Part shown: positions 57,192 to 58,700 of the stretch, in pieces | Layout of the letters: every line of letters begins with the position of its first letter | Numbering within the stretch: the first letter of the stretch is position 1 | IMG/VR virus record: IMGVR_UViG_3300044638_006409 | Coordinates: 56,656 to 120,655 of that record | Strand: one strand, 5' to 3' | From: a virus | DNA length: 64,000 bases | Program-made: the position numbers and the translations under genes | Notes under the pieces: model-generated | What the model saw: the letters and a program-made list of their open reading frames with translations, nothing else | Database searches by the model: none | What the model was told of the DNA's origin: nothing

Positions 57192-58700
57192 ATGAATACA
57201 ATTAAAACCAAAATGGTCCTGATTGAAAGTGGAATTAGAGATATCAATTCTCTTGCTCTTCGCTATAAAAAAGCGAAGGTCTACTTTCATCAGGACCTTT
57301 GACTGGATGGTGTAACGTCTGCTTTAGGAATGAAAAAATACTTGGAAAATAATGGTATCAAAGTTGTTGATGCTGAGATTATCCAATATGGTGGTGACGA
57401 ATGGGCTATAAAAAAACCAGATGCAAGTGGTGATGTTATGCCCGTATTAGTTGATTTTGCTCATGGAAAACCAATGTTTGTTATTCATACTGACCACCAC
57501 GATACACAATCTGGTGTAGAAAAAGATACATCAACAAGTTTCAAGTCAGCAAGGTCAAATGTGGAAACAATTTCAGGTGTATTATCACCAAGAGATATAT
57601 TTCCTTCAGCTGACATCAAATTAATTTCAACTGTGGATTCCGCTAACTTTAGAGCTATGGGAATTACTATGGATGATGTTATCAATTATGTTATTAAGAT
57701 TGATAAGGGACAACCAGTTGAAAGAAATAAGATGTTAATGGGTTTGGTTACAAACAAACTATTATTGGCATTTAAGAATAAAAAAGGATTCTTGGATAGA
57801 TTGGTAATGGAGTGTGAACCATCTCTAATCAGTATCTTCAACAAGATAAGACAAATTATGAAAGAAGAGGGTTGGTCAGGTGTTGAGGAACTACAAATGA
57901 ATAGAGAGAAATACCTCCAACAAATGAAAACTTATGCAAAACAGAAGTTTGAGGATGGTATTATTATCAAAGATGGTGGTGGAAGTATGACTAAACCAGG
58001 TTCATATGATAGGTATGCTAGTTTCTATATTTATCCTGATGCTGATTTCCAAGTAATAACTTGGGGTTCTGTAGGTTTACTACAAGTATCTTGTAACCCA
58101 TTCAAAGAACAAAGAGGATTGAAAGGAATTGACTTGGGTGAAATTAATAGAGGTATTATTGAAAGAAGAAAACCTGAGTTAAGTGAAATTAAAATAACTG
58201 CGGGTAAACTTAAAAGAGTTGCTGAAACTAGTAAGAGATTTGTTCCTGGTGAGAGTGTTGGGTTTACATTAAAGGATTTGTTATCTTTTTATGGTGATGC
58301 ACTTGAAGGTTATAATGAAATACCAAGAAAATTTGAAAACTTCTTGTCTAAAAAATATCCTGATTATGAAAGAGGTTTACAAGAATGGCAAAAAATTGTA
58401 AGTAAAACGATGTCAAAACCATATGTTGAACTTAGTGAGTTTGAACAATCAGTATTGGATTCAGTATATACAACAGCTTATGATGTAATTAAGAATAATA
58501 GTGGTGGACATAAGTGTATCACTAATTTCCAAGCATCAGCATTAGGTGGTGGATTCGGACCTTACAAAACAACTGAGTTCATTGGAATGATTAAAGATGA
58601 GTTCGTTGAAATATTAAGAGAAAGAATCAGAGCTGAAAAAGGCGATGATGTTAATGAAAACTACTTTAAGAATATAATTAAGAAAGTAATGAAAGGTTAA
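57192..58700 (+). CDS. DHH-family phosphoesterase with an in-frame TGA at 57300-57302 (candidate recoded gene)
   Basis: ATG 57192 is in frame with ORF 57330-58700. Reads YFHQDL*LDGVTSA, then VLVDFA, HTDHHD and STVDSA. TATTTAT at 57171. Confidence 0.75.
57211..57305 (+). other. Structured mRNA element ending at CTT-TGA-CTG
   Basis: 57215-57233 pairs with 57280-57297 (18 bp, one bulge, one GU). It encloses hairpins 57237-57253 and 57258-57278. Confidence 0.7.

What the first reader, a model, noticed from the sequence alone, without database searches (positions are those of the whole stretch)
57211..57305. Multi-branch mRNA structure written into the coding sequence and ending at the take-off/stop codons
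SEEN: GGTCCTGAT-T-GAAAGTGGA (57215-57233) pairs with TCTACTTTCATCAGGACC (57280-57297), giving 18 bp with one bulge and one GU. It can extend by AAA (57211-13) / TTT (57298-300) through the CUU codon and the U of UGA. The loop holds two hairpins, AGAGA/TCTCT (57237-57253) and a perfect CTTCGCT/AGCGAAG (57258-57278). A mutually exclusive 9-bp hairpin (57274-57282 with 57293-57301) is also possible. The stretch uses GC-ending codons (GTC, CTG, CGC, GCG, TAC, CAG, GAC) that are uncommon in neighbouring genes. INFERENCE: selection for RNA structure, arguing against a random nonsense mutation. Folding behind a ribosome paused at UGA could push it forward, as stem-loops do in T4 gene 60. It could instead direct RNA processing.
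Basis: partly seen in the sequence, partly recalled or inferred. Interest (0 to 1): 0.85.

Follow-up and report, generated by a model that had tools for sequence, protein, structure and literature searches.

The report
RNA stem beside a ribosome stop-hop
A phage enzyme gene is interrupted inside its catalytic motif by six extra bases containing a stop codon, and a strong, evolutionarily conserved RNA stem ends exactly at that spot, most likely helping ribosomes jump over the stop.

Summary
The fold is real at the stated coordinates: MFE -41.6 kcal/mol, z = -8.05 against dinucleotide shuffles and z = -7.9 against synonymous-codon resampling.

It lies in the first 36 codons of a DHH/RecJ-like phosphoesterase gene. 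These codons end in CTT-TGA-CTG, two extra codons that split the DxD metal motif.

I compared 26 distinct interrupted alleles from public phage contigs. The 17-bp outer stem is predicted in 24 of them and always ends against the take-off codon. It shows two compensatory pairs and nearly frozen synonymous sites. Uninterrupted alleles lack it: mean -14.5 against -36.8 kcal/mol.

The stop is TGA, TAG or TAA and never a sense codon. Both flanking Leu codons are CTN, whereas uninterrupted alleles use TTA/TTG. Relatives carry 8-, 9- and 11-base gaps behind the same stem.

The element often sits beside an HNH-like gene and is scattered over the host-gene tree.

Best reading: an upstream stem that stimulates a short programmed ribosome hop, a miniature counterpart of T4 gene 60/MobA. 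No protein product was observed.

The inner hairpins and the alternative hairpin are not specific or not conserved.

The scan has reported this cassette family before on other genomes.

The parts
56286..57191 (+). HNH-like (H-N-N type) putative homing endonuclease gene, 301 aa. It is the mobile partner of the cassette.
   Evidence: ORF. H242, D244, H245, N267 and N276 are invariant in 10 homologues. There is no Pfam or PDB sequence match. The best fold matches of residues 196-287 are HNH endonucleases 4h9d (Z 4.6) and 5h0o (Z 4.3), which is weak. A full-length relative lies upstream of the site in 17 of 47 rows and in 5 of 9 longer-gap loci.
57192..57299 (+). Cassette-borne first 36 codons of the DHH phosphoesterase gene (MNTIKTKMVLIESGIRDINSLALRYKKAKVYFHQDL), holding the whole RNA structure.
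   Evidence: Translation. An alignment of L002 with L004 shows the divergent block ending at the C of the landing codon.
57216..57233 (+). 5' arm of the conserved outer stem, with a bulged T at 57224. In the window G57215 adds one more pair.
   Evidence: Synonymous heterozygosity is 0.042.
57237..57253 (+). Inner hairpin 1 (AGAGA/TCTCT).
   Evidence: It is 81.9% paired over 21 alleles. It is replaced by other hairpins in some alleles and is not specific to interrupted alleles.
57258..57278 (+). Inner hairpin 2 (CTTCGCT/AGCGAAG).
   Evidence: It is only 57.1% paired in this register over 21 alleles. Differently placed or sequenced hairpins are predicted elsewhere. It is flagged as terminator-like together with the T-rich 3' arm.
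57280..57296 (+). 3' arm of the conserved outer stem. It ends on the last base of the GAC codon (the E-site codon when CUU is in the P site). In the window C57297 adds one more pair.
   Evidence: Synonymous heterozygosity is 0.123.
57297..57299 (+). CTT, the proposed take-off Leu codon.
   Evidence: The codon is CTT in 19 and CTG in 2 of 21 distinct 6-nt alleles, and CTT or CTC in the longer-gap alleles.
57300..57302 (+). In-frame TGA stop, the hopped codon.
   Evidence: It is TGA in 16, TAG in 4 and TAA in 1 of 21 distinct alleles. No sense codon occurs in 36 of 36 matches to a pattern with this position free.
57303..57305 (+). CTG, the proposed landing Leu codon. Its first base C comes with the cassette.
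   Evidence: The codon is CTT or CTG in 21 of 21 alleles. The single Leu codon of uninterrupted alleles is TTA or TTG in 60 of 61 loci. Boundary.
57306..58700 (+). Remainder of the DHH/DHHA1 phosphoesterase gene, from DGVTSALG... to the stop.
   Evidence: Invariant motifs are DxD, D, HTDHHD, DSA and SGGH. Top Foldseek matches are RecJ, PggH, PAP phosphatase, DhhP, GdpP and NrnA. dN/dS is 0.05-0.27 among interrupted pairs.

Best explanation
The 17-18 bp outer stem (57215/6-57233 with 57280-57296/7) is a selected mRNA element of a mobile cassette. The cassette interrupts DHH motif I with Leu-stop (CTT TGA) and carries a C that turns the host's TTG into CTG.

Proposed mechanism (inferred):
1. A ribosome reaches CUU in the P site with the stop in the A site, in the weak stop-C context.
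2. The 3' arm of the stem is still inside the ribosome while the 5' arm and the inner hairpins have already refolded behind it.
3. Zipping of the stem at the mRNA exit, right up to the E-site codon, favours release of the E-site tRNA, blocks backward movement and pulls the mRNA forward.
4. Peptidyl-tRNA-Leu detaches from CUU and re-pairs with the next CUN codon 6 nt on. Nine bases thus encode one Leu, and H-Q-D-L-D-G is restored.

Shown here: the fold, its restriction to interrupted alleles, its conservation and covariation, the conserved stop flanked by matched CUN codons, and relatives with non-triplet gaps.

Inferred: the hop itself and the driver role of the stem.
For: 1. Fold strength: z = -8.05 and z = -7.9.

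2. Allele specificity: the 95-nt MFE runs from -41.9 to -30.2 in 25 interrupted alleles and from -24.4 to -6.6 in 34 distinct uninterrupted contexts.

3. Conservation.
- 24 of 26 distinct alleles keep at least 15 of 17 outer pairs in their own MFE fold.
- 94.7% of cells are paired, against 33-47% when the 3' partner is slid.
- Compensatory pairs: 18-86 (GC 15, AU 10) and 12-92 (GC 22, AU 2, GU 1).
- The one-sided changes counted as standard pairs (4 of 18 pairs) are G-U on the + strand. They would be A-C on the other strand. That points to the sense RNA.

4. Synonymous heterozygosity is 0.042 in the 5' arm and 0.123 in the 3' arm, against 0.27 in the interior and 0.40 downstream. The HNH genes of the same cassettes differ at pS 0.41-0.70, mostly 0.55-0.70. 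The arms are therefore constrained, not merely young.

5. Recoding signature.
- The stop is TGA, TAG or TAA and never a sense codon.
- Both Leu codons are CTT or CTG in 21 of 21 alleles, against TTA or TTG in 60 of 61 uninterrupted loci.
- Nine loci (5 distinct alleles) carry 8-, 9- or 11-nt gaps behind the same stem, with an intact 436-764 aa ORF in the landing frame. Readthrough cannot join the 8- and 11-nt forms.

6. The only lineage that lost the 5' arm (the L076 family) also carries a second nonsense codon.

7. No tRNA gene is found on the contig. TGA, TAG and TAA all end ordinary ORFs, and 92% of the contig is coding under table 11.

8. RNA-library contigs of two metatranscriptome runs (X2, X6) bridge the site with no gap.

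9. Published precedent.
- A stable upstream hairpin next to the E site stimulates forward shifting at CUUUGA on 70S ribosomes (PMC6321510, sections 2.1 and 3.1 read).
- Pairing of exiting mRNA is proposed as the forward driver in gene 60 (bioRxiv 10.1101/2024.12.09.627546, abstract and passages read).
Against: - No protein product was seen. Everything is comparative.
- Only 2 of 18 outer pairs covary, and 8 never vary. The measure 'pairs with a change on both sides' was reached by 88 of 500 shuffles.
- The cassette moves horizontally, with at least 6-7 state changes on the downstream-protein tree. Intact downstream ORFs and low dN/dS may therefore partly reflect recent arrival.
- At take-off most of the 3' arm is inside the ribosome, so the full stem cannot exist at that moment.
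- Five contigs of the L076 family keep the interruption without the stem.
- The inner hairpins are not specific to interrupted alleles.
- In the window itself the gap is in frame, so readthrough is not formally excluded.
- The host and its tRNA-Leu set are unknown.
- RNA-library contigs can contain DNA and drop rare variants.
Confidence: 0.6

Rival explanations
1. The stem serves the mobile cassette at the RNA level rather than decoding. It could be a processing or stability element (for example a double-strand RNase site or a 3'-end protector for the HNH message), or an attenuator that uncouples HNH and DHH expression.
For: - The stem starts about 20 nt after the HNH stop and the DHH start.
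- An 18-bp helix is long enough to be a double-strand RNase substrate (established knowledge).
- Hairpin 2 plus the T-rich 3' arm is flagged as terminator-like.
Against: - The stem is kept intact in most alleles that have lost the HNH gene. 30 of 47 rows have no HNH within 1400 nt upstream, yet only the L076 family lost the stem.
- Its 3' end is fixed against the take-off codon in the 6-, 8-, 9- and 11-nt versions.
- Hairpin 2 is only 57% paired across alleles.
- There is no U tract after the outer stem.
Confidence: 0.15
2. In the 6-nt form ribosomes read through the stop, inserting two residues, or terminate. The gene is then crippled or dead, and the stem is a by-product or has an unrelated role.
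For: - The 6-nt gap is in frame.
- Selfish homing cassettes can persist at a cost.
- The cassette is horizontally mobile, so intact ORFs may be recent.
- One lineage shows decay.
Against: - Three different stop codons occur, so no single suppressor would serve.
- No sense codon is ever found at that position, despite saturated synonymous divergence of the cassettes.
- Both Leu codons are fixed as CTN, although TTA and TTG make up 74% of Leu codons in the genome.
- The 8- and 11-nt versions cannot be read through.
- DxD would become DxxxD in a metal-binding motif that is invariant in 23 homologues.
- No tRNA gene lies on the contig.
Confidence: 0.12
3. The conserved arms are DNA-level signals. 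They could be nuclease recognition or immunity determinants, or recombination sequences. Their complementarity would then be incidental, or would act in single-stranded DNA.
For: - The 3' arm overlaps the presumed nuclease target region.
- A target-like sequence (FH.[DE]LDGF) is conserved upstream of the HNH gene in 9 of 10 HNH-bearing loci. Protein-DNA recognition in this region is therefore plausible.
Against: - The compensatory changes keep pairing.
- The wobble variants are G-U on the sense strand only.
- The 5' arm lies 65 nt from the site yet is the most frozen part.
- Its codons (GTC, CTG) are among the rarest in the genome.
Confidence: 0.06
4. The site is an RF2-type +1 frameshift site, with CUU UGA C and an upstream duplex as stimulator.
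For: The window has the exact heptamer CUUUGAC. An upstream duplex stimulates +1 shifting at this heptamer (PMC6321510).
Against: - The +1 frame runs into TAA after five codons (GAC TGG ATG GTG TAA).
- Alleles with CTG TGA cannot re-pair at +1.
- The conserved protein continues in the 0 frame in the window, and in the frame of the second CTN codon in the 8- and 11-nt relatives.
Confidence: 0.03

Closest known systems
Phage T4 gene 60 translational bypass within the MobA homing-endonuclease element, and its homologues (bioRxiv 10.1101/2022.08.31.505936, abstract and sections 12 and 19 read; review PMC5009743, passages read)
   Same: - Take-off and landing codons match, and a stop follows the take-off codon directly.
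- The take-off site lies a few dozen codons into the ORF.
- The insert sits in a metal-binding motif of a conserved phage enzyme.
- It is linked to an HNH-type nuclease gene that is often lost while the insert stays.
- Its distribution is patchy and horizontal.
- An upstream mRNA structure is proposed to drive forward movement.
   Different: - The host gene is different (a DHH phosphoesterase, not topoisomerase), and the nuclease has no detectable sequence match to known families.
- The gap is 6 nt here (8-11 nt in relatives) instead of 50 nt.
- No conserved take-off hairpin holds the take-off codon. No cassette-specific nascent peptide was found, and the peptide is nearly the same in uninterrupted alleles.
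- The upstream stem is the best conserved feature here, whereas the gene 60 5' stem-loop is reported as not conserved between clades (section 19 of the preprint).
Synthetic 'stop-hops' in E. coli (Weiss, Dunn, Atkins and Gesteland 1987, known to me only as cited and described in PMC5009743)
   Same: [quoted passage not shown] The product is two residues shorter than a readthrough product.
   Different: Those were engineered constructs. The review states that no natural in-frame stop-hop occurrence was known. Here the site is natural, conserved, mobile and preceded by a dedicated stem.
RF2 (prfB) +1 frameshift site CUU UGA C with an upstream duplex stimulator; upstream hairpins as mimics (PMC6321510, abstract and sections 2.1 and 3.1 read)
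   Same: The heptamer CUUUGAC is identical in the window. A stable duplex ends next to the E-site codon. Forward movement takes place at a slow stop.
   Different: The productive event must be +6 (or +8, +9 or +11 in relatives), not +1. The duplex is intramolecular and 17-18 bp long. The stop and the take-off codon vary among alleles.
Mitochondrial bypass elements of Magnusiomyces capitatus (as described in PMC5009743) and candidate UUA-linked bypassing in Streptomyces phages (PMC10732093, search listing and abstract only)
   Same: These are short inserts rendered harmless by translational bypassing. Some are mobile.
   Different: They occur in other organisms, with other signals (an unused or rare sense codon in the A site). 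No long upstream stem abutting the take-off codon is described in the passages I read.

Membership tests
Programmed translational bypassing (hopping), gene 60 type | Matched take-off and landing codons for one peptidyl-tRNA | tested here: met
   CTT/CTG flank the stop in 21 of 21 distinct 6-nt alleles. CTT/CTC to CTT/CTA/CTG occurs in the 8-, 9- and 11-nt alleles.
Programmed translational bypassing (hopping), gene 60 type | Stop or slow codon directly 3' of the take-off codon | tested here: met
   TGA, TAG or TAA in all alleles. No sense codon in 36 of 36 matches with that position free.
Programmed translational bypassing (hopping), gene 60 type | A gap that standard decoding cannot cross, with both flanks coding for one conserved protein | tested here: inconclusive
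   Met in relatives with 8- and 11-nt gaps (6 loci, 4 distinct alleles). In the window the gap is 6 nt and in frame, so this rests on homology with those relatives and on the split DxD motif.
Programmed translational bypassing (hopping), gene 60 type | Take-off stem-loop that includes the take-off codon and forms in the A site | tested here: not met
   The only hairpin containing CUU (57274-57282 with 57293-57301) has CUU in its 3' arm, and its central pairs are kept in 5 and 4 of 21 alleles.
Programmed translational bypassing (hopping), gene 60 type | One joined polypeptide lacking the gap-encoded residues | not testable with these tools
   Needs mass spectrometry or a reporter.
Homing-endonuclease mobile cassette (MobA/gene 60-like, intronless homing) | Adjacent free-standing homing nuclease gene | tested here: inconclusive
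   A 301-aa ORF abuts the DHH start. It has an H-x-D-H...N...N motif invariant in 10 homologues. There is no Pfam or PDB sequence match. The best fold matches are HNH enzymes, at only Z 4.6 and 4.3.
Homing-endonuclease mobile cassette (MobA/gene 60-like, intronless homing) | Patchy distribution at one site, incongruent with the host gene tree | tested here: met
   At least 7 state changes (6 forced by starred branches) on a tree of 54 downstream proteins. L002 (interrupted) and L004 (uninterrupted) are near-identical sisters.
Homing-endonuclease mobile cassette (MobA/gene 60-like, intronless homing) | The nuclease cuts insert-free alleles and the insert protects | not testable with these tools
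   Needs a cleavage assay.
RF2-type +1 programmed frameshift | The conserved ORF continues in the +1 frame after CUU UGA | tested here: not met
   The +1 frame stops after five codons. The protein continues in frame 0.
Bacterial SECIS / selenocysteine recoding | UGA followed directly by a downstream stem-loop | tested here: not met
   The structure is upstream. The stop is TAG or TAA in 5 of 21 alleles.
Any curated RNA family (Rfam 15) | Covariance-model match | tested here: not met
   No match overlapping 57205-57310 at E up to 10.
DHH/DHHA1 phosphoesterases (host gene) | Motifs DxD, D, DHH and D, plus the GGGH-like motif and the two-domain fold | tested here: met
   Invariant D31-L-D33, D82, H93-T-D-H-H-D98, D143 and S431-G-G-H434 in 23 homologues. 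Foldseek top hits are RecJ, PggH, PAP phosphatase, DhhP, GdpP and NrnA (E 1.5e-4 to 1e-3, TM about 0.3). Pfam DHH scores only E 0.0054, below its cut-off.

The most novel reading that the evidence does not exclude
A long mRNA stem that closes right behind the ribosome, ending at the E-site codon, may be the main driver of a natural short-range ribosome hop of 6 to 11 bases. It would form a portable 'exit-side zipper plus Leu-stop-Leu' module. Selfish nuclease cassettes of freshwater phages would use this module to sit inside catalytic motifs without killing the enzyme. That would be the first natural stop-hop. It would also be a far simpler bypass system than gene 60, one in which the upstream structure, rather than a take-off hairpin or a nascent peptide, carries the signal.
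Probability: 0.5. Interest if true: 0.9.

Novelty: new variant of a known kind. Interest (0 to 1): 0.8.

Why it matters
Programmed translational bypassing has essentially one well-studied natural bacterial or phage example, T4 gene 60. A 2016 review states that no natural in-frame stop-hop was known (PMC5009743, passage read).

This cassette would be a minimal natural system: one stem, two Leu codons and a stop. Dozens of wild variants exist, with three stop codons, four gap lengths and natural stem mutants.

It would make an open question directly testable: whether pairing of mRNA leaving the ribosome drives forward movement.

It also matters for annotation. Gene callers truncate these genes to 456 aa and drop the catalytic motif.

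Tried and rejected
**Alternative decoding**
- Alternative genetic code: rejected. 92% of the contig is coding under table 11. TAA, TAG and TGA end 82, 11 and 9 of 103 ORFs.
- Suppressor or Leu tRNA on the phage: none on the window or the 120-kb contig.
- Selenocysteine and +1 frameshifting: rejected on anatomy (see the membership tests).

**Database searches that gave nothing**
- Rfam: nothing at the site.
- Megablast against the phage collection: no match.
- PHROGs for the DHH protein: no family.
- PDB sequence search with the DHH profile: only chance-level rows, E 0.07 or worse.
- HNH-like ORF: no Pfam HNH match in any of 10 members, no PDB sequence match, and Foldseek found nothing at E <= 0.001.
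- HNH-protein scans of metagenome and viral contigs gave only 2 loci each, because the peptide patterns were too strict.

**Structural details that failed**
- The alternative 9-bp hairpin and the AAA/UUU extension are not conserved.
- Inner hairpins as a cassette-specific feature: rejected, p = 0.066 against uninterrupted alleles.

**Other checks**
- Other strong folds in the genome are Pro/Gly-rich repeats on the opposite strand.
- Other single-stop-joined ORF pairs in the contig: 9 were listed, and only this one has matched codons round the stop.
- A second DHH or HNH copy on the contig: none.
- RNA runs: only small shares (0.05-0.10 of words). Contigs cannot show ends, strand or rare joined forms. 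X5 starts too close to the site to count as bridging.
- Removal of the 6 nt in RNA: no gap was seen, which is weak evidence.
- Supplementary files of the papers were not opened. They may hold gene 60 homologue tables relevant to the comparison.

**Rows dropped**
- L099 and L115, L118-L120, L122 and L124-L128 were set aside as chance pattern matches without DHH context.
- L076 was left out and is reported separately.
- Several locus ids are the same contig fetched twice (for example L001/L094 and L006/L070/L079). Counts of 'distinct alleles' remove these duplicates.
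Full report
**What is there.**
The window is part of a 120,655-bp, 31.6% GC phage-like contig. It uses the standard code and carries no tRNA genes. At 57192 an ORF opens and reads MNTIKTKMVLIESGIRDINSLALRYKKAKVYFHQDL. A TGA follows at 57300-57302. The same frame then continues as LDGVTSALGMKKYLE... 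for 465 more codons.

Uninterrupted homologues of 493-499 aa, up to 96% identical, read ..KAKIY[FY]H[QM]DLDGVTSA... The window therefore carries exactly two extra codons, Leu-stop, inside the DxD metal motif.

The protein belongs to the DHH/DHHA1 family.
- The motifs DxD, D, HTDHHD, DSA and SGGH are invariant in 23 homologues.
- An AlphaFold model of a natural uninterrupted homologue (pLDDT 73.9) finds RecJ, PggH, PAP phosphatase, DhhP, GdpP and NrnA as its best solved matches.
- Pfam alone is weak, E 0.0054.

Gene callers annotate many relatives as 456 aa from the downstream ATG and so lose motif I.

**The observation.**
The 106-nt stretch folds into the described three-way junction at -41.6 kcal/mol.
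- Dinucleotide shuffles: z = -8.05, 0 of 200 as stable.
- Resampling synonymous codons by the genome's usage: z = -7.9, 0 of 1000 as stable.
- Permuting synonymous codons within the segment: 0 of 1000 as stable.

Only two other places in the contig fold as strongly, and both are Pro/Gly-rich repeats seen on the opposite strand. The arms use some of the rarest codons of the genome: GTC 6%, CTG 1%, CAG 11%.

**Alleles with and without the interruption.**
- A protein-pattern scan of viral contigs gave 67 loci. Six are interrupted in the same way and 61 are not.
- A degenerate DNA pattern for F-H-Q-D-L-stop/W-L-D-G gave 38 stretches, 37 of them DHH alleles.
- Together with one metagenome contig and the window, this makes 21 distinct 106-nt alleles.
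- A pattern with a variable gap added 9 loci (5 distinct alleles) with 8-, 9- and 11-nt gaps. Ten further hits were chance matches.

The equivalent 95 nt fold at -41.9 to -30.2 kcal/mol in 25 interrupted alleles, and at -24.4 to -6.6 in 34 distinct uninterrupted contexts. That is not met.

**Which part is conserved.**
The outer stem is the conserved part.
- In 24 of 26 distinct alleles the allele's own MFE fold contains at least 15 of its 17 pairs.
- On the alignment, 94.7% of cells pair, against 33-47% when the 3' partner is slid by 1-3 columns.
- Two pairs show compensatory change. A-U to G-C at 18-86 (10 against 15 alleles) couples an Ile/Val change in the 5' arm to a synonymous His change in the 3' arm. 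G-C to A-U at 12-92 occurs in the 11-nt alleles.
- The one-sided changes that remain standard pairs are G-U on the + strand.

Covariation is thin. Eight of 18 pairs never vary. The count of pairs with double changes is not beyond shuffles (88 of 500), although the covariation score and the share of paired cells are (0 of 500).

The stronger argument is frozen synonymous sites. Synonymous heterozygosity is 0.042 in the 5' arm and 0.123 in the 3' arm, against 0.27 in the interior and 0.40 in the next 48 degenerate codons. The HNH genes of the same cassettes have nearly saturated synonymous differences, pS mostly 0.55-0.70.

The stem always ends on the base before the take-off codon, whatever the gap length.

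**What is not specific.**
- Most alleles (24 of 26) are predicted to have two inner hairpins, often with quite different sequences.
- The interior is no more stable than in uninterrupted alleles: -10.5 against -9.1 kcal/mol, p = 0.066.
- Hairpin 2 in the window's register is only 57% paired.
- The alternative 9-bp hairpin and the AAA/UUU extension are not conserved.

**The recoding signature.**
- Among 21 distinct 6-nt alleles the stop is TGA (16), TAG (4) or TAA (1).
- With the six inserted positions left free in the search pattern, all 36 matches were again Leu plus stop, and none had a sense codon.
- Both flanking Leu codons are CTT or CTG in 21 of 21. The single Leu codon of uninterrupted alleles is TTA or TTG in 60 of 61 loci.
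- A close interrupted/uninterrupted pair (L002 and L004, downstream dS 0.22) shows that the cassette ends at the first base of the landing codon. It turns TTG into CTG, otherwise 1% of Leu codons.
- In the 8- and 11-nt relatives the conserved 436-764 aa ORF lies in another frame. It can only be reached by moving from CTT to the next CTN.
- I found these longer-gap forms after earlier notes of this scan on other genomes pointed to them. I verified them independently.

**A mobile element.**
- A 301-aa ORF ends one base before the DHH start. It has an H-x-D-H...N...N motif invariant in 10 homologues. Its weak best fold matches are HNH endonucleases (Z 4.6 and 4.3), and no sequence-family match exists.
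- A full-length relative lies upstream of the site in 17 of 47 rows and in 5 of 9 longer-gap loci. In five of the loci that lack it (L001, L002, L003, L007, L008) only the last codons of the ORF remain.
- On a tree of 54 downstream proteins the interrupted state needs at least 7 changes.
- Near-identical cassettes sit on very different DHH genes, for example L007, L075 and L106.

This matches what is described for MobA and gene 60 (bioRxiv 10.1101/2022.08.31.505936, section 12). It also weakens one argument. Low dN/dS downstream (0.05-0.27 in 12 interrupted pairs, 0.04-0.08 in three uninterrupted pairs) may partly reflect recent arrival of the cassette.

One natural case helps. The L076 family has lost the 5' arm. 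It is the only lineage with a second nonsense codon, TAA replacing a conserved Ser in all four loci long enough to show it.

**Mechanism.**
I propose a +6 stop-hop, with the stem as stimulator. With CUU in the P site, GAC in the E site and a stop followed by C in the A site, the apical part of the structure has refolded behind the ribosome. The rest of the 3' arm can pair only as it leaves. That should oppose backward movement, favour loss of the E-site tRNA and pull the mRNA forward until peptidyl-tRNA-Leu finds the next CUN.

Published experiments fit this.
- A stable hairpin next to the E site stimulated forward shifting at CUUUGA on 70S ribosomes in the absence of RF2, and did so in proportion to its stability (PMC6321510, sections 2.1 and 3.1).
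- Pairing of mRNA leaving the ribosome is argued to be the forward driver in gene 60 (bioRxiv 10.1101/2024.12.09.627546, abstract and passages).

The window's heptamer CUUUGAC is the RF2 shift site, but the +1 frame ends after five codons, so +1 is at most a side reaction.

Contigs of two metatranscriptome runs cross the site with the six bases present and no gap. This argues weakly against removal at the RNA level.

**Comparison with what is known, and novelty.**
The element works like the gene 60/MobA element but is not a member of that family. The host gene and the nuclease differ, and the gap is 6 nt. There is no conserved take-off hairpin and no cassette-specific nascent peptide. The upstream stem, which is poorly conserved among gene 60 homologues (section 19 of the 2022 preprint), is here the best conserved signal.

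It corresponds to the synthetic stop-hops described in PMC5009743, which states that no natural occurrence was known.

My literature searches found no report of this case. The terms were 'gene 60 / mobA / bypass / homing endonuclease', 'tRNA hopping / stop codon / CUU', 'translational bypassing / phage / take-off codon / landing' and 'stop-hop'. The library lacks most subscription journals.

This scan has reported the same cassette family on other genomes several times. The present report adds the analysis of the stem itself.

**Verdict.**
- Selection on the outer stem is well supported.
- Membership of the stem in a bypass cassette is likely.
- Its role as a forward driver is a reasoned inference at about 0.5-0.6.

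Noticed in passing
window 56221-56250: A short non-coding look-alike of the uninterrupted target (reads ..YFHNDMDGFF..) lies between the upstream terminator and the promoter-like ATATTTATAA of the HNH-like gene. Versions of it (FH.[DE]LDGF) stand at the same place in 9 of 10 HNH-bearing loci, though the nucleases are only 52-61% identical in all but one of them (L006, 87%). It could be an operator for the nuclease or a relic of the original insertion.
   Followed up: partly
L076, L084, L096, L108 (84 codons after the landing codon): This lineage has replaced the 5' arm of the stem with unrelated codons. It carries a second in-frame nonsense codon, TAA in place of the conserved Ser of ..ARSNVETIS... 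The rest of the frame is still open.
   Followed up: yes
proteins P0007 and P0008: These are uninterrupted DHH proteins. Their first 18 residues match the cassette version (MKKSHKMVLIESGIRDIN), and the next residues match uninterrupted alleles. They look like recombinants that lost the insert.
   Followed up: no
L110-L114, L116, L117, L121, L123: The extra bases of the longer gaps are G-rich (GGGAA, CGGGT, GGG, CG). They might pair with the anti-Shine-Dalgarno region or simply be slow to scan.
   Followed up: no
window 57257-57289: Hairpin 2 followed by TCTACTTTCA is flagged as terminator-like by the consensus scan. The hairpin is not conserved across alleles.
   Followed up: partly
window 56033-56140 and genome C1:33040-33240, minus strand: These are the most stable folds of the contig (-44.7 and down to -75 kcal/mol). 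They are CCACC/GGTGG complementarity inside Pro/Gly-rich coding repeats and are probably of no RNA significance.
   Followed up: partly
proteins P0040 and P0049: Two 653-aa homologues of the DHH protein carry sigma-70 (ECF) Pfam domains in the precomputed annotation. This suggests fusions, or gene calls that join neighbouring genes.
   Followed up: no
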